A stretch of DNA of 64,000 nucleotides from Leptogorgia sarmentosa (GCA_964658305.1 OZ210885.1:18166001-18230000), one strand, 5' to 3'. Shown: positions 1 through 26,729, counted from the stretch's first letter. Notes: generated by a model from the letters alone, not told the origin. Numbers and translations: made by a program.

Positions 1-542
1 ATAATAATAATAATCTTTATTTCATCGATAAAATACATATCGTATGTTACATGGTAAAAAGTTTCCACCTCTATTTACAACTGTTTTGATTAACTATTTT
101 CTAAAATCTAAATTCCCAACTCGTGTTCAAAAATTAACCGATTCTAAAAACAGTTCTTATACCTAGTAGTGTTTATCTTTGGCTTCGGGATATGTTCAGT
201 TCTGAGATTATGTCCAGTACTTCTTATCTTCGGCAAGAACTCATATAATGGATGGTTCTCTAAAATCCTAACCTTGTTAAAAATCCTTTTATCTTGTTGG
301 TTTAACAATAATTTAATGTCAATTGGCTTAGAGATATAGCCACGCTTTTTGCAGCGATCTAAAAACTGCTGAACACTAGAAAGTTCTGGATTTGAGGCTC
401 CATACACTGACAATCCATATGTGATGTTAGGCATAACCAAAGCTTGAAATAAATGGTCTATTTCATTCTGGTTGTAACCTTCCTTTCGTAAAGTCCTTAA
501 CACAAATAGAGATTTGTTGGCTTTGCATAGTTTATTTTTAAT
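1..542 (-). mobile_element. 3' end of a CR1/L2-group LINE (RT C-terminus, 3' UTR, (TTA)n tail)
   Basis: ORF 144..503 (LRTLRKEGY...LFQALVMPNITYGLSVYG...NTTRYKNCF) is a typical post-RT region. ATAATAATAATAAT at 1-14 is the tail. The frame joins 11684 (..RFNIHI|KNKLCKANKSLF..) once 543-11680 and one AAT copy are removed. Confidence 0.88.
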
Positions 543-584
543 GGGCTATTCCATTTAATATCCGTACCCCCCCTGTCGAGGATA

Positions 585-1149
585 GGTGGAATTCTTTGGG
601 GCTTATGTAAAAACTACATGGAAATCTTCAGGGGTGAGCATATGATTTAGCATGGAATTCTGCAGGGTGCATGTAAATTTAGCGTGGAATTCTTCAGGGG
701 TGCGTGTAAATTTAGCATGGAATTCTGCAGGGGGTGCATGTAAATTTAGCATGGAATTCTTCAGGGGGTGTGTGTAAATTTAGCATGGAATTCTTCAGGG
801 GTGTGTGTAAATTTAGCATGGAATTCTTCAGGGGGTGTGTGTAAATTTAGCGTGGAATTCTTCAGGGGTGCGTGTAAATTTAGCATGGAATTCTGCAGGG
901 GGTGCATGTAAATTTAGCATGGAATTCTTCAGGGGGTGTGTGTAAATTTAGCATGGAATTCTTCAGGGGTGTGTGTAAATTTAGCATGGAATTCTTCAGG
1001 GGGTGTGTGTAAATTTAGCATGGAATTCTTCAGGGGTGCGTGTAAATTTAGCATGGAATTCTTCAGGGGGTGCATGTAAATTTAGCATGGAATTCTGCAA
1101 GGGGTGCATGTAAATTTAGCATGGAATTCTTCAGGGGTGTGTGTAAATT
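585..1149. repeat. Left subterminal tandem array, ~16-17 x 33-35 bp (TAGCATGGAATTCTTCAGGGGTGTGTGTAAATT)
   Basis: Near-identical units read directly, immediately inside the left TIR. Confidence 0.95.
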
Positions 1150-1704
1150 AATAATTAATTAAAGGTAATTACATGTTACATGGGTGCCAGTCATGTATTA
1201 TTCTCATTTTATGGACAACTGTGTAAGTTAGTGTTCTCTTTCCAAAAGCCAACAAGTGCAAAGAGGGCCACCCAGAAGTTGTTGGGGTCTCTCAGAGCAA
1301 GATGAGCAAAATTTCCTTTGATACCCCTTCCTCTTAAAAATAACAAAAAATAACAGGGTAGTTTTACATCCTACTTTTATAATATTATTACGGCCCCAAA
1401 GCCTGAGGGCGGCCCTGACCATATAGCCAAGGGTAGAACAAATATTGAGTGTAATTTCCTATTTGAAAGGTTGCCACTTCAGCTACCTTGTTTTATCTAA
1501 GAGGAATCATATAATCTAGTGTATCTAGTGTATACACCACAGTGACACCAGTGAAAAGGCATTATCGTTCACAAAAAATTCTAACTGTGACATGTCAAGT
1601 TTGTGTGTTCAATCACTGATTAATGGAATATGAGATTGAATGAGGTTGAAATAATTTTAAAAAGGATAAACGTTAAAATGGTTAAAAAGATTCTAATTGA
1701 AAAG

Positions 1705-2732
1705 TTAATCCTGTTCATATTCATCTTTGACAGAAGCAACTATAGTGTCCATTTGCTCGTCTTCCAAAGGAGGACAATCTGTTGAAATATCGAAGGTTTC
1801 CATCTCCCTGTCACTGCTCTTTTTGGTATTGATTTCCTCATTAGAAGATATCTCCGATCCAGTTCTTTTGTACTGTTCAATTGATCTGATAAGATCGCAC
1901 TGTGCTGACTTAAGATCAGAAAAAACCGCGTCAAATTGATTTTCTAATTCATCTCTTCTTTCTCTCCGTCACTGCGACTTATTTCCTCACAGAATTTCTT
2001 ATAGCCCTTGTCTGTAAGAAACTGTGCCTCATTGAGTTTGTCTGAATTTTTTAGCACAGACGTTAAATTAACTTGGCTCGCTTTTTCCATTCCCATCGTT
2101 AAATTGGAAATTTCGAGTTCCTTAACGTAACTGTTCAAAAGCTCAGTCTTTTTTAGTGTCCAGTGGACATCTATAACGCCACATATTTCTTGAAATCCCC
2201 AAGTGTCAAAAAATGCATCATTAGAAATTTCTTTTACTTTCTTGTTTGCGAAAATCATTCGTTCTTTCTCGAATAGTCTTAACGCATTGTTTATTTCATC
2301 GTCGCCGTATATTATGACATATTTTTGTTTTTCCGAATCTTTTTTCCCAATGGCACTATGACCTTCCTGACACCACGTGACTGAATCCCTTTCTCGCTTT
2401 TTCGATGCCGCTGAAGCCTCTGTGAGTGTTTCGCTCGTGGGTTTAGTGCTGTCACTGCTACTTCTAGCTACTTCGGTTATTTTTACATCACACAAGTACG
2501 TTTGTGGCTGGTCCAACTTCGTTACACACTGTGCCACACGATACTTTTTTTCCTGTTTTTGATTTATTGATGTTCCACACACTACAAAGCGATAATCAAC
2601 ATGAGAAGACTTTGCAAAAAAAATGGTTTTTTGCCTTATTTCTGCTAAAGTTGTTTCCAGATCTACATCTGTAATTGCCCCAACAGTTTCGTTTGTGTCA
2701 CTGTTCCGTAAATAAAGTTGTACCGATGACAT
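1705..2732 (-). CDS. Cargo protein A: ubiquitin-like N-terminus + HMG-box-like + coiled coil (frameshift near 1955)
   Basis: ORF 1944..2732. An alternate frame continues DELENQFDAVFSDLKSAQCDLIRSIEQ...EQD* to 1705. Aligns by eye to 3607..4548 (TVG..../TL.E.R, IY...EI..A...EK.R.IF, I...W, SD.K..Q). Confidence 0.7.
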
Positions 2733-3094
2733 TGTTGGTCTTGGATAATGTCGATGAAATCAGTAGTCGCTGTCGTTTATACGAAATCACTGTGAAACCA
2801 CAGGCATCCCATGCACGTTACGTCATTTTAGTATAATATAATATACTAAGTCTAAGGCTGGCAACTCTTTTACGATAAAAATAGACATGCAATTACACTT
2901 TCGCTTCAAACAAATAAAATAACACGACTTTCTGAAAAAAAACTAGATACAAATGAACTTGGATACCTATTCTAAATTTCTACATAGTTTTTGCGTAAAA
3001 ACAACGTTCCGAAATACTTAAATTTGTTCAATAAAAAGTGTTTTTTATCGAAATTTTTTTTGTAGATTTGCGGGATGCAAAATGCCCTACAAAC

Positions 3095-3394
3095 CATAGG
3101 CAGCCCAGTGATCTGGGGTTTTATTATGTTAACTAAAGTTGAATAGGGCTATTTCATCATCCTTAGTTGTTTATATGCGTGCGCCGACAATACGGTCACT
3201 CGCGTATGTAATTAATAGTTATAATAATTGACAATTTTATAACTATTGTAATTTTAGTCAATTATTATAACTATTAATTACATACGCGAGTGACCGTATT
3301 GTCGGCGCACACATATAAACAACTAAGGATGATGAAATAGCCCTATTCAACCTTAGTTAACATAATAAAACCCCAGATCACTGGGCTGCCTATG
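3095..3394. mobile_element. P-element-like palindromic MITE
   Basis: CATAGGCAGCCCAG...CTGGGCTGCCTATG with ~137-bp near-perfect inverted arms. 7-bp TSD TACAAAC (3088-3094 / 3395-3401). CAT...ATG termini. Confidence 0.85.
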
Positions 3395-3606
3395 TACAAA
3401 CGTCATCTTCGGAAACCGCTTCGGCTGAGCTCTTATTGGCTGTTGACAACTCGGAAACCTAAATCTTAGCCAATGTTGAACCGATGTTGATATTTGATTG
3501 TGCTATTTATACTGTTTACCTACGATGTTCCAAATATGGATTAGCAACGTTTTCACTTAATCGGGAATCGGGAAGGTGACGAAACGTTAACGTGTAGTCG
3601 TGTACA

Positions 3607-4548
3607 ATGAAAGCAATCAAAGTGTACTTGGATGGAAAAACGGTTGGTGTTTTACCAGCATTTGAGGAAGGAGTCACTTTGTCAGAACTCCGCAATGAAA
3701 TTTGGGAGGATTTTGGGCTAAATAATTTTCGTTATTTACACGAAAATGAGCCAATTAATTTAAGCACGGAAACACTTGTTAAAGTTGGGTCTGTCGCAAA
3801 ATGCGAGGGTAAAAACAGCAATTGTTTATCCATTGAGCTAACATCCAGTGGTGTGTTATGTCGAAGCAGCAACAACACCGCTTTTAGTTCGGCGGGCCAT
3901 GACGTGTCTCCTGTCTCGGATGCCAGTCTAGCTGTCGATCAAGCTGATGAAAGTCAAGTATTTACTGAAACACAAAGTGATTCATCAAGCAGTAAACCCA
4001 CGAGCATGTTTTTGCGAAGTCCCAGTTCTTGGGAAGTACGGGGTATCAAGATTTACACGAAAAAGAACGAAATAGAATCGGCAAAGGGAATAGAGAAACA
4101 AAGACGCATTTTCTGGAATGACATGGCAAAAAAACTGTGCAAAGAAACCAAAAAATCTAAACAGGTTATTGCACAAATTATCAACGAGTCGTGGAGAAGT
4201 GAGCAAACTAGCTTATTGATTACGAAAAGTAAAGATTTGCTAGATGCAGCTAAAGAAATAGAAAGAACTGACAGTAAAATGAAGCCCAACACTATAGCAA
4301 AAAATATCCAGAGAATCAAGGGCAGCCAGAAAGAATTGGAACGGATTAATGCAGAAATAAAGGAGGCTAGCGCTTTGGTGGGGCAAAGTCCACAGGGGAA
4401 TAGAATTTGCAAGAGAAAGCACGAGCTGGAGCTGGAAGAATTACAACGCGCCAAGAAGTATCACCTTTCTGATATCAAGAAAGGTCAAGACACAATGCGG
4501 AAAAATTTAAATTTAAAACTGTCTGAAGTTCAAAACCTTATGAAATAG
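3607..4548 (+). CDS. Cargo protein B (313 aa, intact): ubiquitin-like N-terminus + Ser-rich linker + HMG-box-like + coiled coil
   Basis: IKVYLDGKTVG...TLSELRNEI...FRYLHENEPIN fits a beta-grasp pattern. RRIFWNDMAKKL...IAQIINESW resembles HMG helices 1-2. Heptad-rich C-terminus. Confidence 0.72.
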   Translation: MKAIKVYLDGKTVGVLPAFEEGVTLSELRNEIWEDFGLNNFRYLHENEPINLSTETLVKVGSVAKCEGKNSNCLSIELTSSGVLCRSSNNTAFSSAGHDVSPVSDASLAVDQADESQVFTETQSDSSSSKPTSMFLRSPSSWEVRGIKIYTKKNEIESAKGIEKQRRIFWNDMAKKLCKETKKSKQVIAQIINESWRSEQTSLLITKSKDLLDAAKEIERTDSKMKPNTIAKNIQRIKGSQKELERINAEIKEASALVGQSPQGNRICKRKHELELEELQRAKKYHLSDIKKGQDTMRKNLNLKLSEVQNLMK

Positions 4549-5137
4549 TACATTTTCGCTATTCCATAACTTTTCTTGCTGTTACATACTTTATATTGTT
4601 CACGTAGTCGTTGAGATATTTATACGTATATGTTAGTGTTATAGCAGGCCAATTATTTCCTCAAATATATTCAGTATACTGTTATAAAGTAAAAAATATT
4701 TACAATGTCTTGCCCACTGACCTTGCCTGATGGGTATCTTTCCAAAATTGTCTTAGCGAACTTGACTTACTTCCATCATAAACAAATTGAGTTATTCAAA
4801 AAGGGAATGTATGATATTTTGGTAAGTCCCAAGTAGACTCGTCTACACTTAATTTTATGGGGCAAGTACACATGTAGCTATTTGCTGAAAATCTGGCGTG
4901 CCTATTTTTTAGCAAAGCTGCAAATGTATCTGGCATAAAATTGCCAGATGAAAATTTATGAGACATCATGTACTCGGGGCTTTTCGATGAAATATTCTGA
5001 ACATTGCAAGGTCGATGCCTGGTTGATTGTCATTATGAAATTTACAAGCAAATATGTAAACAAAATCTGATTGGCCAATTGCAAAAGAGCAACCAATCAA
5101 CTGGTAAGTTTATAAATATTTTATTATGAATTTCATA

Positions 5138-5265
5138 CAGGGTTGCCATCTTGGCTTTTTTTAAGCCAAATTTTGCGTTTTTGGCTTTTTTTGGAGGCGT
5201 TTGGCTGGGAAAAAAGGCCTTTGGCTTTTTTTAAGAATTTGGCTTTTTTTGGCTGTTTTTTGAAA
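5138..5265 (+). mobile_element. hAT-like MITE end fragment
   Basis: CAGGGTTGCCA terminus followed by repeated TTTGGCTTTTT motifs. Partner end not found. Confidence 0.4.
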
Positions 5266-5484
5266 ATGCGAGTATGAATTCAATTATTGCTATAATAGGA
5301 TGAAATAATTAATAAACAGCCTTGGAAATTGGAATGAGTATTGTATATTTTAAGGCACTACAAGTTAACTAGCTAGTTGGCTGAAAAGTGCTGACATTAA
5401 CTTGAAAGAGTACGAAATTTATATTGTTGATAATGACATTTAATATGTGTTGATTATCTTTTCTGTAAATGAGACAAATATATT

Positions 5485-6732
5485 TTGATTCAAATGCTAT
5501 TTAAAGATGCAGTAAAGTCCGTTCTGCGCATTCTTTCTGCTCATAACAAAGACTTACAAGGTTCGGTATTGCGGGAGTATCTTCCCAAAATATCTTCAAG
5601 ATATTTTAATTGCGTTTTCAAACCTGTTTTGAAGCAAATCGATTCGAAAAAATTACTGAACGTTCACAGTTTAGAGGAAATTCTACCCGAAAGTATGTGC
5701 ATAAATCTACGGGCTGAACTTTCGTCCAAGGAACTTTCGCATCAACCAAATATAAATAGTTTCGATTTGACAAAAAACCCTACGGGCACTGGCAAGTTTG
5801 TTGTAGATCTTCCTGTTTTTGGGATGATAGACAAAAATGGACTCCAAGATATGATAAAGCTACATAATCTTCGGAAGACAGTTAAAGAAGTGGAAGACGA
5901 AAGAAGTTGGGTAACAAAAGCGGAAAGGCAGCTCAGATCCAATAAGGGTTTAAAAGAATTATTACAACCTGTGAAGGAGTACGCCAACGCGCTTTGGTCA
6001 AGTACAGGGAAAGATAAAGCATTTGGAATAAACATCAAAGACACCATGCGATTAGCGTGTGACCGATGGTTCTCAGATGATCTTATTGAGTGTTTCTTTT
6101 CTATGCTTGATGCGTCGTCTGAAGAGCATATGTTTCTTGTTTTTGATCCTCTAATGACCAACCCGTCACATTTATTAAAGCGAGTTGAAGCGAGATTAAA
6201 TAACACAACTAAGTATTTACATTTTGCTTTGAATGTCAAGTGTACTGGTATTAACTTGGCCACAACAATAGGGAATGGAAATCATTGGGTATACGTCCTT
6301 GTGACTAATAATGGAGAAGACATTATATATGGTGACCCTAAAGGCTGGAAAATGCCAGATGCTTTACAATCCATCTTCGAACCTGTACTTAACATACTTA
6401 GAAAGAGACATGGATCGCAAACTAACCCCATTGTTAGGCAGAAAGTAATGCATCATCACACTTTTGGAACTGTGCATAATTGTGTAAAAGGTTGTAGTAA
6501 CTTGTTCCCAGTACAAACCTGCCAGGATTTTTGTGGGGGCATTGTAATTCTTGTTTGCGCATTAGCGATTTTATTACCGGATTTGTGGAATCACATGATA
6601 TTTGAAGAAAATTCTTTTAATGGCCGTGAGGTAACAACAGAATACAACACTTTTATAAAACTGTTGAGGAACCCGTCTTCTCATGCTTTGATATGGAGAT
6701 CACTAATGATATCTTGGTTGGTACAGAAGTAG
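5485..6732 (+). CDS. Ulp1/SENP-like (peptidase C48) cysteine protease
   Basis: RWFSDDLIECFF, GNHWVYVLV (His), IYGDPKGW (Asp), PVQTCQDFCGG (oxyanion Gln + Cys). True start uncertain. Probably once fused to the next ORF (frames overlap at 6710-6732). Confidence 0.75.
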   Translation: MIQMLFKDAVKSVLRILSAHNKDLQGSVLREYLPKISSRYFNCVFKPVLKQIDSKKLLNVHSLEEILPESMCINLRAELSSKELSHQPNINSFDLTKNPTGTGKFVVDLPVFGMIDKNGLQDMIKLHNLRKTVKEVEDERSWVTKAERQLRSNKGLKELLQPVKEYANALWSSTGKDKAFGINIKDTMRLACDRWFSDDLIECFFSMLDASSEEHMFLVFDPLMTNPSHLLKRVEARLNNTTKYLHFALNVKCTGINLATTIGNGNHWVYVLVTNNGEDIIYGDPKGWKMPDALQSIFEPVLNILRKRHGSQTNPIVRQKVMHHHTFGTVHNCVKGCSNLFPVQTCQDFCGGIVILVCALAILLPDLWNHMIFEENSFNGREVTTEYNTFIKLLRNPSSHALIWRSLMISWLVQK

Positions 6733-6733
6733 T

Positions 6734-9700
6734 TTGCCTTATTCACAGTTATCACATAAATCATACGTAAACAAAACAGAGAGCGAAAAGATGGAACACG
6801 ATGAGAAAAAAGAGATAAATGATGAACTTAATATGAATAAAAAGATCCCATTTTCAAAACTATCGCCTAGCTGGTATGCATTGCAGCTATCAAAAGAAAA
6901 GCTTTGCTATCCACGTTTGTCAAAAAAGTGGTTTGAGAAGCAAAGTTTCGACAAGCCACAGCATGATCCAAGTATTTCTCCCAACTGTAATGCTGATCAA
7001 CCAGACATTCCTTTAAATTCTGAGATACCTTGCTCGCACAAAGATGACAAGACGTTACGAAAAACTGTTGAAGAGAATACAAACAGCCAAATTCCATACA
7101 AAGGTATATCTAAACAATGGTACAAAAGAAGAGGCGCACTTTCACTTAAAAATAGAAGCAGAAGCAAGCAGGTAATAGCTGGAGGGAGTCTCCAAGAAAA
7201 TCTTAAGGCTATCATAGATACAAACCAAAACCTTGCTGCTGGAACAAAAAAACATGAGGTGAATAAAGCGATGATAAACGTTGGGACTTACATATTAGAA
7301 AACGGCCCTTTAATCGCCACTCAGGATCTCGGTAAGGTTTTACTCGGAATAAGACCCGAGAAGAGTGGAAAGAAACGAAAACCTCGCTCGTCTGAAATTC
7401 TAAGAAGAATACAAAACCACTTTAATGTGATAGAGGTTAAACTAAGAGGGAAGTCATACATAGTGGAGAACAGGAGTCAGAATATTTCCAAGATTGCTAC
7501 AACATTAGAAGAAATAATTGGACGTTGTTCAACAGAAAACATTAATACTCACCTTGAGACAAAAATTGGGACTCTTTTCAAATCGGCTGTAAGATTCGCC
7601 GATCGTGATTTGATTAAAGGTTTATTTGCTACTGCAACAAGCGTAAAATTCGTTGCAAAAATGCTTGACGTGAAAAACAGAAACTCCATTCAGTCTGCAA
7701 AAGACGAGCTTGCCTTTAAAATATCCAAATTTCTAGAAGTTGAAAAAACGTCGCAGATCGTGAGGAATGATATGACCAACGAACAACAAAGAAGGACAAC
7801 TAAAAGAATAATTGCGCAAAGGAAGACAAATAATTTCAAACTGAAATACGAAACAAGGGGACGAATGATGCTCGCTGACAAATTTCCTGAACTCAAAATT
7901 GTCTTGGAAGAAATATTTAACGCAGGGGTTACTGGGATGCATGGTGGTCTTGAAAGTCACCCAAGACTTACTACAGATGTACTATACAGGTCACGAGACA
8001 ACACATTATTTATGCATCAGGCCCGCGAAATCCTGCTTCAAGTATCACCGCCAGGGTTCGGTATATCATTAAAGTCGTGCTACAACTATACAGAGTCGTA
8101 TAAAGACAAAACATACTCGGCAAAACGCCATCATGTTGGTAAAGATGTTAATGCGAAAATATCCCTTAATCGTCCTCCTAGAATTGGTGTTTCTAAGCAC
8201 GTAGTCAACTTGCATTGGACAACCAAGAACGTAAACTTGCTGCTTGAAAATCTGGAGACGAGCCAGGATGATTGTGTGATCGATTCAAAGGATGCAAAAG
8301 CCATTGTTTGTGGAGATATCCAGCCAGTACAAAATCCAGGAAAGAGTTGGAAATCCATCACTTATGAAGATCACACATTTGAACAAAGTCGAGTGAATGC
8401 TGTTTATCCCATGACACATTTATTTATGGAACCGAAAGAAAGTATTGATGAAAAAACCAACACAGCTAGAGTTACCAGGACAGGACAGGCGGTTGTTCTC
8501 ATTAACATTGCCTTCTTTGAACCCGAAACTACATTTCGCGCAATGAACGAAATATTGTACTTGTTAAGCAGACCATCCTTGGACAAAATTTTTAGAAATC
8601 CAGTTACAGGTAACATTAAATCCGTCTTTTCATTTATTGTCGATAATGGTCATGGTGAAGACCCAGATAGCCCACTGACTCAAATGTGCTTGTCGAGGTT
8701 ATTGTACTTGCTCTCCCTTACCAAAATTAGCCAACGGTCTTTTGCTAAATATCACAGTAAAAGAAACTTTGTTGAAAGAGTGCATGCTGCTGAGAATTTG
8801 GCCTTGTCGCGACATGGCTCCTTTAACAGCAAAAAAATTCACAGCGACCCAGAAGTAGGCAGTAAAGAGCACGCCGAAAATATGGAAGAAATGGCACTTG
8901 ATGTGAAAGACTGCATTTCTGAAGCTCGGTTTGCCGGACGTTTTCTACAATGTTTCAGAGGGATCAACAACAATAACGGAGTTTTTGACGACGAAAATAA
9001 ATTAAAAGAATTTTTGAGTCTTTCAGAAGAACGGAAAGAAGAATGCACCTGGATATACAAAGCGGAAAGTATCAGTAATTCAATCTTCGAATCACTTGTC
9101 ATGGTCTGGAATGTGCCTGCAGATTTTGAAAGAAGATACATTAGCGATTATAAAGTTGTGATGAATAAAGAAGAGAACGTTAACTGTTCAGCATGGAAGG
9201 ATAAATATTCTACAACACTTTACAGTGGCATAGATGAGAACAATTTTGAGTTTCAACCTATACCAGATTATGTAAGATGGTTCGAAAGTAACGGAGAGCT
9301 TCATTATCTGTCATACGAGAAAACAGTGGCGCTATATGAAGAGATACAAATTGACATACCAGCGTTACTCCTGCCATCCACTGTCTTGGATTGGTTGTTT
9401 GTAAAGAACAGCACACCACCGGATGATGTACTTTTCGAAATCTCGATTCTTGCTTGGCTTCCAGTACAGGATGTGACAAAGTATTTCCAATTAAAACGTG
9501 ATAAAATGGAAAAAGACTTTAAGAAAGATCTCGCAAGGGAAACATGGCGAAATCACACATTGTACAAAAAGTCAACGGGAGAGTTACAACAGCAATGTAG
9601 AAAAGACAGTCTTTCACCTTCAGGACAAAAGTACGAGCTTGTGCAAAGATTGGCATTGGCAAGAGGGGAACAAGACAGAAGCAAATTTCAGCCTTCATAC

Positions 9701-10378
9701 TGTGGAAAATTATCATCCCTACCTAAATCTCTCAGTGAACTTAAGAAAATGCCAATTCCGACCATAAAGTACATTTTAAAGTCCAACGCAATTTCATATG
9801 CAGGTAATAAAGATGAGCTGGTACTACGACTATACCTTCTTATCCATGGACGTTCCTATTTAGCATTTTACGAGCAAGAGAAGCAACTAAAACGATGCAT
9901 CACAACTGTGAAGCGAATCATATCACTCGAAATTAAACAATCGATATTGTCGTGTAATAACATACACAGAATCCGAACTTGCACTACTTCCAACTCGATT
10001 GCAAAATCAAAAATTATGATCCCCAAGAACATACAGGCGATTACCGATTTACACAAACTGTTTTCGGCTCTCCTAAATTATGTTGACCATCTAGTTAACC
10101 GAGATTTGGACGACTCAAGTGCAGATGAAGACGTTATTGAAGATAATTCCGACGAGTACTGTGAATATTTTGAAGTTGGGAAGCAAGTTAAAGTCAAATG
10201 GACAAAGGATGAGATAGGGGATACAGGATGGAGAGCCGGTTGGTATAACGCAGAGGTGCAAAAAAGCAATATATCATCGGATGAAATTACCATTGTCTAT
10301 GTTTCAGAGCCCGAGTCCATATATAAAGTTGAAGTTACCCCACTGTTGGCTCATGGAAAGTTGAAGTTAAACAAATAA
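6734..10378 (+). CDS. Zator-like DDE transposase with two SAP domains and C-terminal Tudor/Agenet-like domain (1214 aa open)
   Basis: IDSKDAKAIV, YEDHTF, FIVDNGHGEDP and HSKRNFVERVHAAEN parallel the Zator motifs DDKA/DHDF/DGGPDE/S..N.VER. SAP-like ELQQQCRKDSLSPSGQKYELVQRL and IKYILKSNAISYAGNKDELVLRL. Tudor-like FEVGKQVKVKW...GWYNAEV. Confidence 0.82.
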   Translation: MPYSQLSHKSYVNKTESEKMEHDEKKEINDELNMNKKIPFSKLSPSWYALQLSKEKLCYPRLSKKWFEKQSFDKPQHDPSISPNCNADQPDIPLNSEIPCSHKDDKTLRKTVEENTNSQIPYKGISKQWYKRRGALSLKNRSRSKQVIAGGSLQENLKAIIDTNQNLAAGTKKHEVNKAMINVGTYILENGPLIATQDLGKVLLGIRPEKSGKKRKPRSSEILRRIQNHFNVIEVKLRGKSYIVENRSQNISKIATTLEEIIGRCSTENINTHLETKIGTLFKSAVRFADRDLIKGLFATATSVKFVAKMLDVKNRNSIQSAKDELAFKISKFLEVEKTSQIVRNDMTNEQQRRTTKRIIAQRKTNNFKLKYETRGRMMLADKFPELKIVLEEIFNAGVTGMHGGLESHPRLTTDVLYRSRDNTLFMHQAREILLQVSPPGFGISLKSCYNYTESYKDKTYSAKRHHVGKDVNAKISLNRPPRIGVSKHVVNLHWTTKNVNLLLENLETSQDDCVIDSKDAKAIVCGDIQPVQNPGKSWKSITYEDHTFEQSRVNAVYPMTHLFMEPKESIDEKTNTARVTRTGQAVVLINIAFFEPETTFRAMNEILYLLSRPSLDKIFRNPVTGNIKSVFSFIVDNGHGEDPDSPLTQMCLSRLLYLLSLTKISQRSFAKYHSKRNFVERVHAAENLALSRHGSFNSKKIHSDPEVGSKEHAENMEEMALDVKDCISEARFAGRFLQCFRGINNNNGVFDDENKLKEFLSLSEERKEECTWIYKAESISNSIFESLVMVWNVPADFERRYISDYKVVMNKEENVNCSAWKDKYSTTLYSGIDENNFEFQPIPDYVRWFESNGELHYLSYEKTVALYEEIQIDIPALLLPSTVLDWLFVKNSTPPDDVLFEISILAWLPVQDVTKYFQLKRDKMEKDFKKDLARETWRNHTLYKKSTGELQQQCRKDSLSPSGQKYELVQRLALARGEQDRSKFQPSYCGKLSSLPKSLSELKKMPIPTIKYILKSNAISYAGNKDELVLRLYLLIHGRSYLAFYEQEKQLKRCITTVKRIISLEIKQSILSCNNIHRIRTCTTSNSIAKSKIMIPKNIQAITDLHKLFSALLNYVDHLVNRDLDDSSADEDVIEDNSDEYCEYFEVGKQVKVKWTKDEIGDTGWRAGWYNAEVQKSNISSDEITIVYVSEPESIYKVEVTPLLAHGKLKLNK

Positions 10379-10461
10379 TAAGGGAGCTACAGGAAAAGTA
10401 CATGTTCACCTGCCATATCAGGGACAATTTTATTTTACCTTAATAATGTATATTAGACTTA

Positions 10462-10807
10462 GACTACATTTACACGATGCCGGTATTATGTGAAAACGGT
10501 AGAAAAATTACGATAGTTTGCGAATGTGCCGTTTACCTGTTGCGTTTACACGGTGCCGGTAAAAATAATGACGGTTTGTCATGTGATATTCCTTGTCCAA
10601 TGACATTTAACCATTGTCGAACTCTTGCGGCGCGGGCGTTTACACGGTGCTTGTTACTGTTCCGTTTTCACACTTCGCCGATAAGGACGACGTTTTCGTT
10701 TTTTGCCGTTTTCATGGCATTTTCTGCCGGTATCGTATAAACGCAAGGCCAAAACGGCATAATTTCGTTCCGTTTTCAAATGAAAACGGCATCGTGTAAA
10801 CGTAGTC
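10462..10807. mobile_element. Harbinger/PIF-type MITE
   Basis: 21-bp TIR GACTACATTTACACGATGCCG / CGGCATCGTGTAAACGTAGTC (1 mismatch). TSD TTA on both sides. Confidence 0.85.
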
Positions 10808-11311
10808 TTAATAAGTGAAATTCTACATGTTGGATGCGTTCACATGTCTTGTGGGGTCCTGTGGACACGTTTTTCATCAATTTTCCTATAAAATTCTATA
10901 ATTGTCAAAAAAGGTGAAATTTCAGGTTGGTTTTTAGGAAAAATCACTTATGTTGTTAGAAAAGTCAAAAACATGTAACATTGTGATTAATCTTTTTAGA
11001 CATTTTTATATAAATATCTAGATGTTTATATAAAAATATCTAGAAGGTTTGACTGTTGTTTACCTATTTTATATCTACATATAACTTTTTATGAGGGCCA
11101 CAAGTTCATTAGTTGCTACAACTATTATGTGTCAGCCTCGTTAAATAAAGTTTAAATGAAAATGAAATGAAACCAGAGCAATATAAAAGGACATATTGTA
11201 TATATTACATATTGTATAATTATATTATGCTCACTAGTGTCAGAATGTTAATATATAAAATACAGGTTTTTTGTGAATATGAGGGAGCTTGATGAATTTA
11301 CTTACTTTCAA

Positions 11312-11620
11312 CGGGTGGAATTCCTCAGGGGTAGGGCATTTTGAGGGTGGAATTCCTCTGGGGTATGGCATTTTGAGGGTGGAATTCCTCAGGGGTAGGG
11401 CATTTTGAGGGTGGAATTCCTCAGGGGTAGGGCATTTTGAGGGTGGAATTCCTCTGGGGTATGGCATTTTGAGGGTGGAATTCCTCTGGGGTATGGCATT
11501 TTGAGGGTGGAATTCCTCAGGGGTAGGGCATTTTGAGGGTGGAATTCCTCAGGGGTAGGGCATTTTGAGGGTGGAATTCCTCAGGGGCAGGGCATTTTGA
11601 GCGTGGAATTCTTCAGGGTT
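11312..11620. repeat. Right subterminal tandem array, ~10 x 31-32 bp (GGGTGGAATTCCTCAGGGGTAGGGCATTTTGA)
   Basis: Read directly. Shares the TGGAATTCYTCAGGGG core with the left array. Confidence 0.95.
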
Positions 11621-11680
11621 ATATGTTTGAAAACAATGTATCCTCGACAGGGGGGGTACGGATATTAAATGGAATAGCCC

Positions 11681-13305
11681 AATATGGATGTTGAATCTGC
11701 AGTTGCTTCGTAATCCCATTCCTAAGACAGTCAGTTCATTACATTGTGGAATGTAGTCCTCAACATTTCCTTTCTTTCGAAATATAAGTTCATGACATTT
11801 CTCTGGATTGCATGCCATTTTATTATTTTCAGTCCAATTGAAGAATTGATGGACAACTTCACCCGAATTATCCTCCTTACCTCTGAATACTGGGACTGCG
11901 ATCGTGGAATCATCTGCATACTTCGCTAAAAATTCTTCTACAGTGAGATCGTTTATAAATATATTGAACAAATATGGACCGCTAACGCTTCCCTGTGTTG
12001 TTCCCCTATTAACAAACTTCCAATTACAAGCAATTCCATTCGAAAGGACACGTTGTTTCCTATCCTGAAGGAAATTTATATACCAATTTATAATGATCGG
12101 GTGGAGAGGCAACTTCTTAAGCTTTTCACATAATAGAGAATGGTTAACCCAGTCAAACGCTTTTGAGAAATCCATTGCAAAAAGTCTGACTGCCTTAATA
12201 TCCTTATTATCTAGATAGCCACATAAAGTATCCTGAATTGAGAGCAAAGCATCCACACAGCTACCACCTTCCCGATAGGCGAACTGATTACCACAGAGAT
12301 GACTCTCTATGATATCCTTGCAGAAACATTTGTAGACTGTTTTCTCAAAAGCTCTAGCAATTACTGGTGTAACATTAATACCACGATAATCTGAATCTTG
12401 CACCGGTGTGTCAGTCTTGGGTAATGGATCAATATTCGCTTCCTTCCATGCCATTGGCCATGTCTGCTTGCGTAACGATAAATTCCAAAGATGAAGTACA
12501 ATTGGAGCTAACTCGTCAACATAATCCCACCATACCCAAAATGGGATCCTATCCGGGCCAGAAGCAGTTTTCTTGACAGTAGCGAGTGACTTAAGAACTT
12601 GAAATGTTGTGAGCTGTGGAACATCCATGCTATAAGTCATACTGACAGGTTCAGTTGTATTGTAGTTTGGATCTGAACACAGATTTCCAAAATAGTCATT
12701 AAGTCGGTTCAGAGTTTCGACATCAAGTGCTGACCGAGGTCTGTATTTTCTGTTAGAGAGTTTATCTACCCCATCCCACCATTTCCTGCAACCAGTATTT
12801 CCAACGCTTCTCCAGTTCCTTCTGTTTTTTGATATTAAATTACCAATCTTTCTATTTAATATTTTTTTGCTTTCACCATCAGTAAGCTTAGATTTCTTTT
12901 TGAGTAAGTGTTTCAGGAGTGGTGTCATCCACACAGGGTCTCTTATAGACACGTTCACAGATTTCAAAGGCATGCATTCATCCATCATCCGTAGTAAAGT
13001 ATTATTAAATTCAGTAACCGTGGTGTCGATATTGTCCTTAGATAACACATCACTCCAATCTTCCATTTGTATACGTCTGTAGAATTCTAGCTTTCTATGC
13101 TCTCTACGATCTCTCAATTCTCGCTTCATACGAACAGGTTTAAGCTTATTAACAGGAGGTAACACAACACCTTTATGATCAGTTTTTCCGGTGGCATCTA
13201 CAGCATAACACGAATGAAACAGGCTTGGGCAATTGGTTAGAACATTATCTAAGATATTACTACCTCTCGTTGGGTAATTAACTAAAGCGTCAAATCCCAA
13301 TTTTG
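11681..13305 (-). mobile_element. 5'-truncated CR1/L2-group LINE: end of APE endonuclease + reverse transcriptase
   Basis: PTRGSNILDNVLTN..DH (EN end), ASGPDRIP, QFAYREG, MDFSKAFD, GTTQGSVSGPYLFNIFINDL, KYADDST. Confidence 0.92.
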
Positions 13306-13336
13306 TTGCATATTTTTTTATTAAGAGACTCGGATT

Positions 13337-15126
13337 TTGTTTAATAATTTTTTAGACTCAGACACTGATGTCGCTGATGAGCCTAAGTCCCGTTTCAAGC
13401 GTCGAATTTTGGTCGCATCGAATGCAATTCAAACAATGGATAATGAGATGACTAACTTCATTATCCATTGTTTGAATTGCATTCGATGCGACCAAAATTC
13501 GACGTATGAAACGGGCCTAATTCAAGAGGTACTCAATGGTCTTCAGTGTTATTGTCAAAAATCACTGCATTGCTATCATAGCATAAATTCAATTATGAAT
13601 ATATTATGACATCTTAGAGCATAGCTGAACAACAAGGAGGTAATGTATCACTTTGTTTTTAAAAAAATCATTGCAGAATTGCAACATACATCATGGTGTT
13701 CTGCTCATGATGAAGTCAATGCCCTGAAGATGGAGAATGAGGAGCTTAAGACACAGATAAAAGTTCTTGAGGAAAAATTAGCACTAATGGAGGAAGTCCC
13801 TTGTTAATAAGCAGCAGGAAGTCATCGAACTATTCAAGGACATTACAGGATCTGGCTGTTTCCTTAGTGGCATACTATCTCTGTCTGAGAGAAATGCAAT
13901 CAAGGATGAGGTCAACAAGGCCAAAAAGCTCTTTGACTTTGGATGTAGAGATGAAGAAATGGACTTAGCTGAAATATTTGATCCTGATTTATTTAACAAG
14001 CTACAGAGAAACATTAAACTAGAGTGTCCCACTATAAGTAATGTGTTGGAGCAGTTAGTCCTATCCCCCAATGCCAGCAGAAATACCATACCAATGAAGA
14101 TGAAAGCAGCTGTCCATGTCATGTCTTGTCCGTCTGCCCCCTTTTTAGCCAACCCATCTTTTTTCAGCAAGCCTCATATTACACAATATTTTTACATTAT
14201 TACACCAGGTTAATTCCAGCCCACCCATATAGGGGATATGTTGAACTTACTATGTATGATTTCTAGAGCAGGTTCATCACAATATGTTTCATTTCCAGGA
14301 CCAGTGTCTTGAAAAGGCAACTGCAAAAGTACAAGGAAATTCTGGCAAAGAGAGCCCCAGCTAATGCACCAATAATAACATACCAAGACAACATGCAATT
14401 GACAAGGACTTCAATGAGGCATCTCAGGCTATCAAAACTACAAAAGGAGAAAGTCAAACAGGGAACGTTCTGGGATGTCACAGTGAGGGGATGGAGGGTA
14501 GCAGATGTCACTGGAATTGATGATTTGTTTGAGAAGAAAGAAACAGCCCTGGATCCACAGAAAGAGATTGCATCCTTAAAATATGAGGATATCAAAATAG
14601 GTGCAGAGTTGCAATTGCATGTATATATAAAGAATCAAATCATGTAAAAGAGCCAAAATTGTTTACTAAGTGGGCCAATGGTTTCTATTTAGTGGCAATT
14701 TAGCCATCATCACTAAACCAGAACAGACTAAGAAAGGGCCAATGAAGAACACCAGGAATTATGGATGGCTTTTAAGAGAAGAAATTTGCTCCAGAAGCTT
14801 GACACAGCCCTTAATAACGTCAATCTAACAAGTGACGAGATCAGTAATGCTCCTCAAGAAACCTTACAAAAGGCAGCACAAGGTGCAGAGGAAGCCAAAG
14901 CCAGTGGGAAAAAATTCAAAATTGATTTTCCTGATTTATCTGATAAGAAGGCCCAGATTTTTCCTCTTCCCATCCCACCTAACCCTAACTACTCTAGGCA
15001 CTGCAAGTAACTTGGATTTGTTTGCTAGTGAGTTTGATTTCAAAAGACAAAGTGTAAAGGAGAAGTTCCTGCCTAAACACAAAGACTATAATCTTGATAA
15101 GGCTTATGAAAGATGTGCCTTTTTAA
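13337..15126 (+). pseudogene. Academ-like transposase, N-terminal part (fragmented)
   Basis: Fragments include IITYQDNMQL (candidate first Asp). The frame ..AYERCAFLK continues SYEKQKEY.. at 20867 after Kolobok removal. Confidence 0.6.
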
Positions 15127-16414
15127 AGGGGAAGTCAGGGTTCACAACAATTTGCACTCAAATGAAAGATCATATATTGCCTACCTCACATGCAAAGTCT
15201 CTTGTCTTCAGATTAAATATAAGTCTAGAAATAAAGCGTTGAAATTGCTAAAATTTACATATTGCGCGCCGCCATAGTATACATCGCAGCGAAGCCGCGA
15301 TCATGCAGCGGTTTTACCTCGTGACGTCATTGCGCGGTTCGCGGTAGCGCCTAATATTCAAATTTCTAAACATCGAAGCGACATTTAGCGAATAAGCGAT
15401 CTTCACAAATCACAGCAGTATTTAGTGTTTTAAATACACATTGTTTTGTTAAAATGCCGTATTGCATGGTGCCTGGTTGCACAAATTGTTCAAAAAAGAC
15501 AAAAGGTAGTGATATATGGTATCATCGTTTACCGAATGATCAACATACACGCAGAATGTGGCTCAGACGTGTTCGCCGCGAAAATTTACCAAAACCAAAC
15601 TCATGCTACGTTTGTAGCGCGCATTTTACTCCTGACTGTTTTGAATTGTCTCTCAAAGAGATGTTTGGTATAAAGTGTAAGAAGGCTCTCAAGCCTGGAA
15701 GTGTTCCATCAATATTTCCATTTTCAAGTCACAAACCAGAACGTGTATTATCACACAAGAGGGCACAAATTAAAGAAAAGATTGCACAAGTCCAGGTAAT
15801 TGATGGGAATAATATATACATTGTGGGAAACACTACAAGAATTTACTACTACAGTAAACCCTCTATTATATGTTTCAGAATATATTATTATTCAAGGGGG
15901 AAGGGGGGGGGGAGGTGAGGGGTCATTGGACAAGTTTACAAAATAAATCAGACTCATTGCCATAAATGCTATAAACTATACTACAAGCAGTCAATATACA
16001 TGAATAATTACAAATAATAAATATTACCAATATTAGTTCATACTGGTTTTACATGATTTAAATACTTTTCATTCAAATCTTGCAAAAATTGGGTTTCTTT
16101 CCAGGAAGTAGAAAATATTTTGAACGACACAGTACATGAAGATGATGCAGGTGATATGCAATGCACTGAACAGGACCCAGCCAATTATGTTCCAAATTTT
16201 GATGCAGGAACACAATGTGAACCCAGAGTTTTGTTGGATGCAGAGACCCAGTCTGACAAAATATTAAAACGTAGTATTGGCATACAAACACTTGCACCAC
16301 GTAAAAAGAAAACTAGAAAATCCCAAAGGCTACATACATCATTGAGTCCAAATGTCAATTGTCCACTTGGTACACTGTCAACACCGATGGAAATAAAACA
16401 ACACAAGCCATCCG

Positions 16415-17697
16415 CAGGCGCGGATCCAGCTTTAAATCTGACCGTGGCAGGGTCGAAAATTCACATAACCAGGGGGGGAGTTCGGGACACCCCCCCCGGT
16501 AAATTGTCGAAATTTGAACACATTTCCCTGCGTTCAGAGCATCGAATTCTATCATATAATTCGCCATTAATTCCGCCATGTTTTAGAGAGAAATAACGAA
16601 TCGCACTCAATGAACTTAAATCGAGATCATATTACTATTTGACCAACTTCAAATAATTTACATATAAAATTTGCATACACAAATATTCCCTGGCCCTAAG
16701 GCAATTGCAAATTTAATATAAATCTATTAAAATTTCTTACTTAACACGGATATTAGGCCCAGATCTTTCAATTTGACTCTTGGGGAACTGCAGTTTGGAA
16801 AATTCGCACACTCGCAGCACGATGTCGCCTGTAGATTTTATACGGCGCAGCTTTCCTTCAGTGATAAATTTATATTTATCACACTGTTGCCTCAAGAGCG
16901 ATAACTCCCCTGAAATATCTTCGCCCTGGTTCAATTTTTGAAAGATTTCAACGAGCTTCTTCAGAACATCGACCTTTTCAAGAGCCTCCATTCTAACAGC
17001 ATTCGATTCAGCGAACTGATCAATATAGCTTGTTATGAAATTCTACCCGTCAAGTCCGACGAGTACCCGAACTCATCGTTCATCATTTGCATTGCGCAAT
17101 GAAAATACGCTCACCGTGGCGCACCGTGGCGCACCGTGGCGCACCGTGGCGCACCGTGGCGCACCGTGGCGCACCGTGGCGCACCGTGGCGCACATGACC
17201 ACATCTAGCCCTGTGATTGGTTTGCACCTCTGCACCGTGGCAGAATGTTACTATATTTAGTAACAATTGCGAAACTTTTTGCACGCTGACCGTGGCAAAA
17301 TTTGTGGCTGTGATCGCAGGCGGCAGCTTCAAATTTGCGAGTGTTTACCGAACATATTCGGCATACTTCGGTACGGTTTCGGCTGTTGTTATAGTTCAGT
17401 GTTAACTGAATGATTATGCTATTGAAGAAACATAATATTTCGGCGTTTTCATTGCGTTTGACGCGAAATACGACACCACATAAAATAATGTGAACAATCC
17501 GGGAAAATGTTATTCAAATTGGCTGTTTTAGAGTTTAGATGCAGATTTCCTTGATTTTGAACGATTTATTTCAAATTATTATTCATATATATATACTTTA
17601 ATCTAATTTGCGAAAAAGGTGAACCCCGGAAAATCTAAGGTGGGAAAAATCTGACCGTGGCTCGCGCACCGTTCGCCACGGTCTGGATCCGCGCCTG
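16415..17697. mobile_element. Non-autonomous hAT-like element with 5-bp TSD (hAT5-type)
   Basis: TIR CAGGCGCGGATCCAG / CTGGATCCGCGCCTG. TSD ATCCG (16410-16414 / 17698-17702). Removal restores KPSAARALYNNG in the Kolobok frame. Confidence 0.87.
17112..17194. repeat. (CACCGTGGCG) x ~8 minisatellite inside the hAT5-like element
   Basis: Direct reading. Confidence 0.95.
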
Positions 17698-19807
17698 ATC
17701 CGCTGCTCGTGCTCTTTACAATAATGGTCCTGATTCAGCCCTAACTGTGATGAAAGAAACAGACACAAATGCAAAATATAACTCTGAGCCTGAGGAAACT
17801 GATAGTTTAGCAGATAACACATCAGACAGTGAATTCACTTCAAATACTGACAGTGATGAGGATTATTTGTGTTCTGAATCAGAAAGTACAACTGATGAGT
17901 CTGATGAGGAGGAACTAAAAAATGAAAGCAAATTTGTTGTGTTCGAAAGCATGCTTGACCAACTTTTTATTAATTGCAAAACTTGTGGCTCTTTATGTGA
18001 GATTGAAAAGTCTGTCACTGGGTAGCATGGTATCAGTCAAAGCAACCTGCTGTAAAAACCATACCTTTCACTGGAGATCACAACCACAATTAAATAACAA
18101 GCCTGCTGGTAACATTTTAATTCCTGCAGCAATTGTCTTTTCAGGTGGATCATATGAACCGTTGAAACAATTCTCAAATGCACTTAACTTGAAATTTGTG
18201 AATAAGGATCAGTTTTATGATGTGCAAGACAAGATAATTTTCCCAGTCATCAATAATGCCTATAAAAAACAACAAAAGGATATCATTGAAACATTGAAAG
18301 ATGAGGAAACTGCAGTGAATTTATGTGGTGATGGTAGATCGGATAGCCCTGGTCATAATGCTAAATATGGCACATACTCACTAATGGATGAAGCTACTGG
18401 AAACATAGTCGATTTCTCTCTTGTTCAAGTCTCCGAGGTTACTTCATCCAATGCAATGGAGAATGAAGGGTGTCAAAGATCTCTGAACAAAGTCCTTTCC
18501 CAGGATGTAAACATAAGATCATTGGCAACAGATCGTCACACAACCATAACTGCAGAAATGCGGAAAAAGTTCCCTCTATTATTCATCAGTATGATGTGTG
18601 GCACCTGTCAAAGTGGGTTACCAAGAAGCTGAGCAAGAAAGCCAAGAAAAAAGGAAACAAGCCACTTTTTAAATGGATAAAATGTGTATCCAATCATTTG
18701 TGGTGGTGTTCACAGACTTGTGGTGGTAATGCTGAAGCCCTGAGGGAGAGGTGGGTGTCCATTTTGAACCATGTGGTGAACAAACATAAATGGAAGAACA
18801 ATAAACATTTCAAAAAGTGTGAACATGGCCCCATGTCTAAAAGAAAAGAAAGAAAAACAAAATGGTTAGATGTAACATCTTCAGCCTATGTTGCCCTAGA
18901 GGAAGTTGTTCTAAACAAAAAATTTCTAAAAGATATTGGAAAACTTACAGAATTCCATCATACTGGTGAGCTCGAAGTTTACCATTCTCTGCTGCTTAAG
19001 TACATTCCAAAGCGTCTGCAATTTTCGTACAAAGGCATGGTCGCTAGAACTCAATTGGCAGTGCTTGATCACAATACGAACACTGGAAGAGAGCAAGCAA
19101 AAATTACTAAGGGCGATAACAAAGGGCAGAAAAAATACAAGTTGGTTTTTCCAAAAGGACAGAAAAAATGGGTAGCAAAGCCGATCAAGACCGGAAAGTC
19201 TTTTTCATTTGTTGAAGACTTGATGGAAGCAGTTGTTTCCATCAAGAATGATACAGATGAAAAAGACACAAGTGATAGTGATGACGAAGATACCACCTGG
19301 GCACCTTGTATTCCAAACAATATCGCTCCCATACCAAGACCCAGTAGAGAGGAAGTAATTGCAGCCCACAGAACCCGGATGTTGAAAAAACAATAAATTT
19401 ATGTTACCCTACAAGAGTGCTACCCTCAAATATACTATTTCACCCGTCGACAAGGTTCAGTATGCGGCCTGCCGCCTGTGTACATGAGTAGTGGATAAAA
19501 ACATCAACAAGCAGCAAAAGTTCTACTCACTACCTAAACGATACAATAAGATTCAAACTTCAATATGTGGCCAGTGTAGGTAGTAGATAACAACATCAAC
19601 AAGCAACAAAAGTTCTACTTACTACCTAAACGATACAGCGAAGACTCAACGTTATAGCTATTTGAACCAGTGTCCAGTGATTACACTGTTAATATCAAGG
19701 ACAAGTTTAACAATTGTTGAATGACTGTAAATTTGTATTATAATTGAAAGTAGATTAATATGTCAAAAATAGCAAATATTGAAGCAATGTTTCAGAAGCA
19801 GAATCCC

Positions 19808-20562
19808 CTACTCATCTGCAAATTTAAACCCTTTAAAAACAAAGTCCTCTTCTAAACCTGGTGGTGGAAAATGAGCTCTAATACAGCTGACTACACAAGA
19901 GGGCAATGGGACCCTTATATCCTTGCCCAAGATATCCCAACACCACCTAACAAACGTCCTATATGCGACATGTCGATTTTTTTTGTGTTCAGGCCCTTCA
20001 AATGCCTTTGCACCATATTGCTGTCGGTAAGTACTCCAGGAAAGTCGCAATACCCAGTAACTTAAACATAAATGCGTGAACACAGGATTATCAGTTATGC
20101 ATTCTGGAATGTCTATGCCCTCAATCTCAGTGGATTCTTGGTTGATAGCAACACAAGCTGGGATCTCCTGGCAACAAACACCCTCTTCTTCCCTATCCAT
20201 TATCTGGCAATGGGTACAAAGACACCTACAGTACGAAGTCGAGATATTTCCTGTGATCATTGGTGATATGTCGATCAATTTATAATATATCCTAAACCCA
20301 CACTATCATTTTTTATACTATTGAATGTAAATGATAATTACCAGTTTGTGTCTTGAAGTCTTGTATTTTCAGACGAAGAAGACCCTGAAGCCATCTCTGA
20401 TCCTGAGTCATCTCCGCCGCCACTCGAGTCAGTTTCAATCGGCTCATATGCATATGGCTGGATGAAATTCACGCCTGCTCCCACGTTCACTTCTTCGCTA
20501 GAACCCGACCCATTCATTTGAGAACTATCACTTGAAGATCCGTTCGAGTAATCAACATCCAT
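19808..20562 (-). CDS. KolX protein (Cys-rich, P2X7-ballast-like), 2 exons
   Basis: Exon 1 from 20562 to a TG|gtaatt donor. Exon 2 starts at 20225, giving NWCLCTHCQIM..E..CCQE..CIT....F...RHVAYRTFVRW..LGKDIRVPLPSCVV..IR..FP. Confidence 0.82.
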
Positions 20563-24285: not shown

Positions 24286-24540
24286 ATGATGATGGTTTCA
24301 ATTGGTTTAATCATCATGAAATTATGAAATATAAAAATTGTTACTTCTGTATATAGTATCAATTCCTTAAATTCCTGGAATTTAGATCAACAGTGTTGGC
24401 TTTCTAGATCACACTGCCTGTGCAACACCACAGCGTTTTTGGATTACATTTGAAATGGTTCTTTTTAATAAATGGTAAACTTCACCCCTTGTGGTTCTTG
24501 ATCCACTGTTTTTTTGTGCAGCTTTCACTACACTGAAAAT

Positions 24541-26482: not shown

Positions 26483-26729
26483 TATATACACTATTTTGCA
26501 GTAGTGTTGTCAATTTCGGAACAAATATCTCGGCCCCTCTCCTACACAGGATATTTTGGTATGCATAACTTACATGCGCGAAGTGTCAACGAATTGTTCA
26601 ATTTTGGCAGGCATCTCCTCCTCTTCTTCTCCTTCCCCTCCCCCTCCCCCCTTCGTATTTTTGTTCACGCCACAGGTACCCAAGATAAAAGAGGTCAGAT
26701 CCAAGGAGATGCCTGCGGAGGAGGCTAAT

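What the first reader, a model, noticed from the sequence alone, without database searches (positions are those of the whole stretch)
543..11680. Giant Zator-like transposon carrying its own ubiquitin-like proteins and an Ubl protease
Seen: one element bounded by perfect TIRs and a TSD holds a DDE transposase with SAP-SAP-Tudor-like domains, an Ulp1-type protease with intact His/Asp/Gln/Cys motifs, and two divergent paralogous genes with a Ubl-like N-terminus, HMG-like middle and coiled coil. Known: Zator elements are usually described as single-transposase elements with TWA TSDs, and Ulp1 capture is known from MULEs and Zisupton. Inference: this is a multi-gene Zator lineage whose protease may process or regulate its own Ubl-fusion DNA-bending proteins, or strip host SUMO to escape silencing. 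I know of no description of this architecture.
Basis: partly seen in the sequence, partly recalled or inferred. Interest (0 to 1): 0.88.

Follow-up and report, generated by a model that had tools for sequence, protein, structure and literature searches.

The report
Zator-related transposon with swappable protease
This is a damaged 11-kb copy of a jumping-gene family of marine animals that carries, besides its DNA-cutting enzyme, a protease predicted to remove ubiquitin- or SUMO-type tags (a different such protease in most relatives) and two helper genes with a ubiquitin-shaped domain, likely a kit for handling the host's protein-tagging controls.

Summary
The element is real: 543-11680, 42-bp perfect TIRs, AAT duplicated, inserted in a LINE reverse-transcriptase gene. 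Four whole relatives and many MITEs in other animals' DNA share the GGGCTATTCC ends; their 3-bp duplication is mostly AWT, not the TWA recalled for Zator. The DD43E transposase is distantly related to a Zator-type element (E 1e-5). The protease has a full Ulp1-type His/Asp/Gln/Cys set and hits SENP1 weakly. Most relatives carry an OTU deubiquitinase in the same slot, often fused to the transposase (24 of 81); one coral gene model fuses this same Ulp1-type domain. Ulp1-bearing transposases are not one clade, so the module was exchanged. Proteins A and B are paralogues with a predicted ubiquitin fold, but 0 of 43 have a Gly-Gly after it and some relatives lack the domain, so self-processing is unlikely. 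HMG and Tudor labels stay inconclusive. This copy is damaged (A frameshifted, protease tail deleted, nested MITEs). Protease swapping is known from Ginger1; this lineage and the A/B family were not found in the papers searched. Repbase/Dfam could not be checked.

The parts
540..542 (.). Left target-site duplication AAT
   Evidence: family consensus AWT
543..584 (+). Left TIR, 42 bp, begins GGGCTATTCC
617..1149 (.). Left subterminal array of 33/34-bp units with a GGAATTC core (16 copies of the core; none in the 10-kb interior)
1705..2732 (-). Gene A: Ubl domain, helical unit, coiled coil, acidic tail; frameshifted in the 1944-1968 overlap
   Evidence: (P0243 covers both halves at 52% and 51%)
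3099..3390 (.). Nested palindromic MITE flanked by TA, very high depth in the runs laid
3607..4548 (+). Gene B, 313 aa: beta-grasp Ubl (res 1-83), disordered linker, helical unit with FWN...W motif, coiled-coil hairpin
5138..5340 (.). Fragment of another repeat (raised depth); not characterised
5501..5550 (.). 50-bp piece of a high-copy repeat that forms the first codons of the protease ORF; homologues start further in
5494..6732 (+). Ulp1/SENP-type cysteine protease, 412 aa (H264, D281, Q341, C347); tail lost
6729..6730 (.). Junction of an internal deletion: contigs of two other runs leave or join the window sequence exactly here
   Evidence: X7 ends at 6729 with 10 loose letters, X4 starts at 6730 with 67; homologues continue about 45 aa
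6710..10378 (+). Transposase frame (1195 aa from Met 6791): N-terminal LPxxxLSxxWY repeats, RNase H-fold core D501/D618/E662, two SAP domains, conserved C-terminal beta domain (Tudor-like label unproven)
10462..10807 (.). Nested MITE flanked by TTA, high depth
11313..11618 (.). Right subterminal array of 32-bp units with the same GGAATTC core (10 copies)
11639..11680 (-). Right TIR, 42 bp
11681..11683 (.). Right target-site duplication AAT
11681..13351 (-). Host site: 5' part of a LINE reverse-transcriptase ORF; its 3' part continues at 542-144

Best explanation
This is a damaged copy of a cut-and-paste DNA transposon lineage related to Zator, whose transposase likely carries a tag-removing cysteine protease as its N-terminal module (Ulp1-type here, OTU-type in most relatives) and which also encodes one or two helper proteins whose ubiquitin-shaped domain likely serves as a docking surface rather than a cleavable tag. 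Shown: TIRs, 3-bp AWT duplications, MITEs with the same ends, an invariant D-D-43-E triad in a predicted RNase H fold, the same slot filled by OTU or Ulp1, in-frame fusions in relatives, and A/B genes inside the TIRs. Inferred: the transposase binds the TIRs and subterminal arrays, excises and inserts with a 3-base stagger. The tethered protease likely strips host ubiquitin or SUMO/NEDD8 marks from the transposase or nearby chromatin, slowing degradation or silencing. A/B likely oligomerise through the coiled coil and recruit partners. In an intact element the protease exon is likely spliced to the transposase; in this copy that junction is deleted.
For: Mobility: 4 of 4 whole relatives in G001 (7.8-13.9 kb) have the same termini and a 3-bp TSD; 10 of 12 end pairs have a 3-bp TSD, ATT 5, AAT 4, ATG 1. 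Catalysis: D501, D618, E662 in 61 of 61 rows; model pLDDT 84.7, top Foldseek rows are Mos1 (E 0.008), VIA Z 8.9, rmsd 3.6 over 183 residues. Fusion: P0097 (Porites lobata gene model, 1560 aa) has this protease at residues 29-410 ahead of the transposase, E 7e-88; 24 of 81 homologues have an N-terminal OTU (4 of the 24 were profile seeds); G001:C59 has a 2282-aa open frame from OTU to transposase, and its OTU is split by a GT-AG intron. Exchange: Ulp1-bearing transposases fall in two supported clades beside OTU-bearing ones; holding them together is rejected, p-AU 2e-50. Ubl fold: Z 8.2-8.7, rmsd 2.2-3.1 over 70-75 residues to ubiquitin, NEDD8, ISG15. Precedent: Ginger1 transposases end in OTU or Ulp1 (PMC2836005, passages).
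Against: In the closest four-gene family the protease (433 aa) and transposase (977-994 aa) are separate ORF calls, and the OTU of L001 is a separate ORF too; splicing is inferred. Only 1 of 81 homologues shows the Ulp1 fusion, and it is a gene model. 56 of 81 show neither protease, although many are partial ORF calls. The SENP1 match is weak (E 0.005) and Pfam gives no C48 hit. The decayed transposase loci in G002 and G003 gave no A/B, OTU or Ulp1 hit. Substrate, activity and the role of A/B are untested.
Confidence: 0.55

Rival explanations
1. A self-contained system: the element's protease recognises or cleaves the element's own Ubl proteins A and B to mature or regulate them.
For: The Ubl fold is real; the closest Foldseek rows are SUMO chains; the genes travel together.
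Against: No Gly-Gly within about 16 residues after the last strand in 0 of 43. Four whole elements keep a protease but their A/B proteins lack the Ubl. The Ubl persists when the protease class changes from Ulp1 to OTU (L005-L007).
Confidence: 0.12
2. The protease is a separate gene whose product acts in trans, for example against SUMO-dependent silencing across the nucleus, and is not tethered to the transposase.
For: Separate ORFs in the window, in the closest family and in L001.
Against: In-frame fusions in P0097, L003, L007 and G001:C59, and introns in this gene in G001. The transposase frame is open upstream of its first Met and carries an N-terminal repeat there.
Confidence: 0.2
3. The protease and A/B genes are passengers with no role in transposition or host control.
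For: The window copy is damaged in A and at the protease tail yet has perfect TIRs; MITEs with the same ends move without any gene.
Against: Catalytic residues are kept at 28-79% identity; the slot was refilled with a protease of another clan; the A/B family spans 211 clusters. Damaged copies and MITEs can be moved in trans.
Confidence: 0.1

Closest known systems
Zator superfamily (Bao et al. 2009, not held, features recalled; PMC10045372, PMC7386202, PMC5718144, passages read)
   Same: DDE transposase of the IS630-Tc1-mariner neighbourhood, 3-bp TSD, GG termini. The core matches a single-ORF 3.9-kb element in G001 that has GG ends, a TTA duplication and the same D-43-E spacing (hhalign E 1.3e-5, hmmsearch E 4e-7; none of 26 ISAzo13, IS630 and rve controls under E 0.9).
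   Different: AWT instead of TWA (recalled), TIRs of 39-43 bp, 8-14 kb length, 1200-2300-aa transposase frames with SAP-SAP and a C-terminal beta domain, a protease module, and one or two extra genes.
Ginger1 DNA transposons (PMC2836005, passages read)
   Same: Transposase carries either an OTU or a Ulp1 protease domain, in cnidarians and other invertebrates; a role against the ubiquitin pathway was proposed there.
   Different: Gypsy-type integrase and a C-terminal protease; here a Zator-related core with the protease in front, and separate Ubl helper genes.
Ulp1-bearing Mutator elements and OTU/VTD-bearing Helitrons (PMC2836005, PMC9741609, PMC6431247, passages read); Zisupton (recalled)
   Same: Mobile elements that keep catalytically intact deconjugases, with one class replacing another.
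   Different: Unrelated transposition enzymes; no Ubl-helical-coiled-coil helper family reported in the passages read.
SENP1 / Ulp1 (peptidase C48) and integral ubiquitin-like domains
   Same: Order and context of Trp, His, Asp, Gln, Cys; beta-grasp fold of A/B.
   Different: Too distant to assign a substrate; the Ubl lacks the Gly-Gly end of conjugatable modifiers.

Membership tests
Zator | DDE transposase with RNase H fold, near IS630-Tc1-mariner | tested here: met
Zator | Sequence similarity to Zator transposases | tested here: met
   Weak but specific match to one Zator-type element of G001; that element's label rests on recalled features, not on a database
Zator | Similarity to TP36/ISAzo13 (PMC10045372) | tested here: inconclusive
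   E 0.42-0.45 against 8 ISAzo13 proteins, although the D, D, E motifs align; the Zator-type reference also fails this test (E 0.4)
Zator | 3-bp TSD (PMC10045372) and GG termini (recalled) | tested here: met
Zator | TWA target (recalled) | tested here: not met
   0 of 10 TSDs are TWA; ATT 5, AAT 4, ATG 1; AAA, AAT, ATT in three further large copies
Zator | Single transposase gene and 25-34-bp TIRs (recalled) | tested here: not met
   Two to four coding units; TIRs 39-43 bp
Zator | Placement inside the clade of Repbase Zator families | not testable with these tools
   No Repbase or Dfam; the single outgroup had a very long branch
Ulp1/SENP (C48) proteases | His-Asp-Cys triad with oxyanion Gln in clan CE order | tested here: met
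Ulp1/SENP (C48) proteases | Profile match above the family cut-off | tested here: inconclusive
   No Pfam hit; 8 best PDB rows are SENP1/Ulp1, E 0.005-0.11; UniRef names P0097 by this domain; no structure predicted
Ulp1/SENP (C48) proteases | SUMO specificity | not testable with these tools
   Needs probe assays
Conjugatable ubiquitin-like modifiers | Beta-grasp fold | tested here: met
   B modelled; A by profile only
Conjugatable ubiquitin-like modifiers | Gly-Gly after the last strand | tested here: not met
   0 of 43
HMG box | Three-helix L-shaped domain | tested here: inconclusive
   3 of 43 members hit HMG_box, best E 0.002, model positions 6-44 of 69 in the two rows seen; not among the listed top families for 78 others; the model runs one helix from 185 to 216
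Tudor domain | Five-strand barrel with aromatic cage | tested here: inconclusive
   Conserved W/Y motif in 39 of 81, doubled in L006 and L007; no Pfam or PDB sequence hit; not folded
Ginger1 | Gypsy-type integrase with C-terminal protease | tested here: not met
   No rve match; protease lies in front

The most novel reading that the evidence does not exclude
An undescribed superfamily-level sister group of Zator, widespread in marine invertebrates and defined by GGGCTATTCC ends and AWT targets, that runs its own ubiquitin-system toolkit: an exchangeable deconjugase on the transposase, a new family of Ubl-helical adaptor proteins that dock on it or on host ubiquitin receptors, and in one relative an F-box/LRR ligase adaptor.
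Probability: 0.3. Interest if true: 0.8.

Novelty: new variant of a known kind. Interest (0 to 1): 0.6.

Why it matters
It adds a large multi-gene branch to a superfamily usually taken as simple. It gives a natural experiment on an open question: transposon OTU domains were stated to be untested in PMC9741609, and here OTU and Ulp1 replace each other on closely related transposases, with apparently intact copies available (G001:C59). The A/B family has 211 clusters and no Pfam model, and would be a rare case of animal DNA-transposon helper proteins with a ubiquitin fold. Automated annotation already mislabels members (one is named Vertnin).

Tried and rejected
No whole genome is held for the window. 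The protein Atlas gave no answer. No RNA holder was listed; this says nothing on expression. Protease with the Ubl of B in complex prediction: no verdict, score 0.00, alignments not used. No hit in plasmids or viral contigs. PF07592 was not found in G001-G003. NCBIfam gave nothing above cut-offs. The wide structure search of B was filled by coiled coils, and no HMG box was listed in any of three searches; a profile of the middle region gave only coiled-coil rows. One HMG hit in G001 was too little for a profile test. A 28-nt GT-AG intron at 6720-6747 would put the two frames in register; I rejected it as too short and because one search shows a deletion inside it. An assembly error is unlikely: run X1 has one 4959-base contig with no difference across the junction, but X1 may be the source sample. 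Depth was not used as copy number. The careful tree did not finish; quick trees were used. One search dropped P0098 (87 of 88 rows), one search used 39 of 87 rows, and P0020 was added to the held group after the first tree was seen. Literature: 10 searches; none listed a Zator with a protease or Ubl genes, or an AWT-target transposon. Bao 2009 and Yuan and Wessler 2011 are not held. Supplements were searched only for PMC7386202; unseen supplements, Repbase Reports and Dfam may already hold this lineage.

Full report
Observation. The element runs from 543 to 11680. Its TIRs are 42/42 identical and AAT is duplicated on both sides. It interrupts a LINE reverse-transcriptase frame (RVT_1, E 3e-25) whose reading continues on the far side. 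Both ends carry tandem arrays with a shared GGAATTC core, 16 and 10 copies against none in the interior.

State of this copy. Gene A is frameshifted: homologue P0243 covers both halves in one protein. The protease stops about 45 residues earlier than its homologues. Contigs of two other runs leave or join the window sequence exactly at 6729/6730; read by eye, one continues the protease frame and the other is open in the transposase frame. I infer an internal deletion. MITEs flanked by TA (3099-3390) and TTA (10462-10807) and two repeat fragments are nested inside. The transposase frame is intact.

The lineage. The transposase core found 81 homologues; the named ones are from Paramuricea, Exaiptasia, Clytia, Porites and Mytilus. 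Seven loci came from metagenome contigs and seven from three genome handles, whose contigs I take to be animal host DNA because of their introns and eukaryotic repeats. G001 holds four whole elements of 7.8-13.9 kb with GGGCTATTCC termini, 39-43-bp TIRs and duplications ATT, AAA, AAT, ATT. A terminal pattern gave 70 matches in the three handles against 2 for the reversed control. I analysed 29 of the 30 loci returned: 10 of 12 end pairs have a 3-bp TSD (ATT 5, AAT 4, ATG 1; one pair shares an end with another), 30 of 36 ends abut ATT or AAT, and most pairs are MITEs of 240-590 bp.

Transposase. D501, D618 and E662 are present in 61 of 61 rows and fall on the first strand, after a later strand and at the start of a helix of the model. 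Mos1 ranks first in Foldseek (E 0.008); VIA gives integrases and Mos1 at Z 8-9.4. The core matches a single-ORF 3.9-kb element of G001 with GG ends and a TTA duplication (hhalign E 1.3e-5, hmmsearch E 4e-7), and none of 26 ISAzo13, IS630 and rve controls. That element fits Zator by recalled features only. The direct ISAzo13 test is inconclusive, since the reference fails it too. The TWA target and single gene recalled for Zator are not met, so I file this as Zator-related, not as a member.

Protease slot. The protease profile ranks SENP1 and Ulp1 in its 8 best PDB rows (E 0.005-0.11), and the catalytic set is conserved. Of 81 homologues, 1 carries this domain N-terminally (P0097) and 24 carry an OTU there (4 were seeds); 56 show neither, many being partial calls. 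L003, L007 and G001:C59 have OTU in frame with the transposase N-terminal region, and the G001 OTU is split by a GT-AG intron. Against fusion, the closest family and L001 show separate ORFs. On a quick tree the Ulp1-bearing transposases sit in two supported clades next to OTU-bearing ones; joining them is rejected (p-AU 2e-50). So the module changed at least twice.

Proteins A and B. The B profile finds A (E 3e-5) and 211 clusters. Of the 150 listed, 149 passed a rescan: 65 cover the Ubl, 132 the helical unit, 58 both; many are fragments. The model of B (mean pLDDT 87) has a beta-grasp domain matching SUMO, ubiquitin, NEDD8 and ISG15 (Z 8.2-8.7). No Gly-Gly follows it in 0 of 43. All 4 family hits in G001 lie inside the four elements and lack the Ubl. 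L005-L007 (L005 and L006 are one element) carry two divergent Ubl-bearing genes ahead of OTU. The decayed loci in G002 and G003 gave no cargo hit. The HMG resemblance covers two helices only and is weak.

Mechanism. Cut-and-paste insertion with a 3-base stagger follows from the TIRs, TSDs and DDE fold. That the protease is tethered and removes host ubiquitin-type marks is inferred from the fusions, the conserved catalytic residues and the exchange between two protease clans that share only this kind of substrate. That A/B act as oligomeric adaptors is the weakest step.

What is known. PMC2836005 (passages) reports OTU or Ulp1 domains on Ginger1 transposases and cites Ulp1 in Mutators; PMC9741609 (passages) reports OTU/VTD exchange in Helitrons and says transposon OTUs were untested. 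PMC10045372, PMC7386202, PMC8533490, PMC5718144, PMC4455052, PMC5751038, PMC10294476, PMC12239620 and PMC10941475 (passages with Zator) mention no extra genes. PMC6431247 has no occurrence of Zator. PMC3024977 (passages) notes a transposase-like HTH in vertnin. Ten searches found no description of this architecture; Repbase, Dfam and Bao 2009 were not available. Earlier notes of this scan list protease capture in several other superfamilies; they are unchecked and lowered my view of how surprising the protease alone is.

Verdict. Real, recurrent and apparently undescribed as a lineage; a new variant of a known kind. Interest 0.6.

Noticed in passing
L007:5256-6065 (+): An F-box/LRR ORF (F-box-like E 2e-10) lies between the A/B genes and the OTU-transposase of a relative, so one element may carry both a ligase adaptor and a deubiquitinase.
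   Followed up: partly
G001:C87:679619-683490 (L023, L074): A 3.9-kb single-ORF element with GG ends, 33-bp TIRs and a TTA duplication; used as the Zator-type reference.
   Followed up: partly
window 6710-7125: Four LPxxxLSxxWY-type repeats in the transposase N-terminus; 12 of 81 homologues have at least one by a strict pattern. Function unknown to me.
   Followed up: partly
L006:13791-14202, L007:13503-13940: The C-terminal beta domain of the transposase is tandemly doubled.
   Followed up: partly
G001:C87:632466-645238: One copy has about 5 kb of extra DNA between the transposase and the right TIR.
   Followed up: no
window 15122-20871: A 5.7-kb element with 221-bp perfect TIRs, a THAP ORF and an opposite P2RX7_C ORF; Kolobok-like by recall.
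   Followed up: partly
window 22663-26509: RecQ-type helicase ORFs facing ankyrin-like and transposase-like ORFs; Academ-like by recall.
   Followed up: partly
window 37794-39427: Broken hAT-type transposase (DUF659).
   Followed up: partly
window 46185-52394: A 6.2-kb element with 89-bp TIRs and two ORFs without a Pfam hit at E 0.001.
   Followed up: partly
window 4055-4070: Gene B differs from a 99% identical homologue (P0006) by a short replacement that adds one codon.
   Followed up: no
G001, G002, G003: These prokaryote genome handles contain long contigs with spliced transposon genes, which look like animal host DNA.
   Followed up: no
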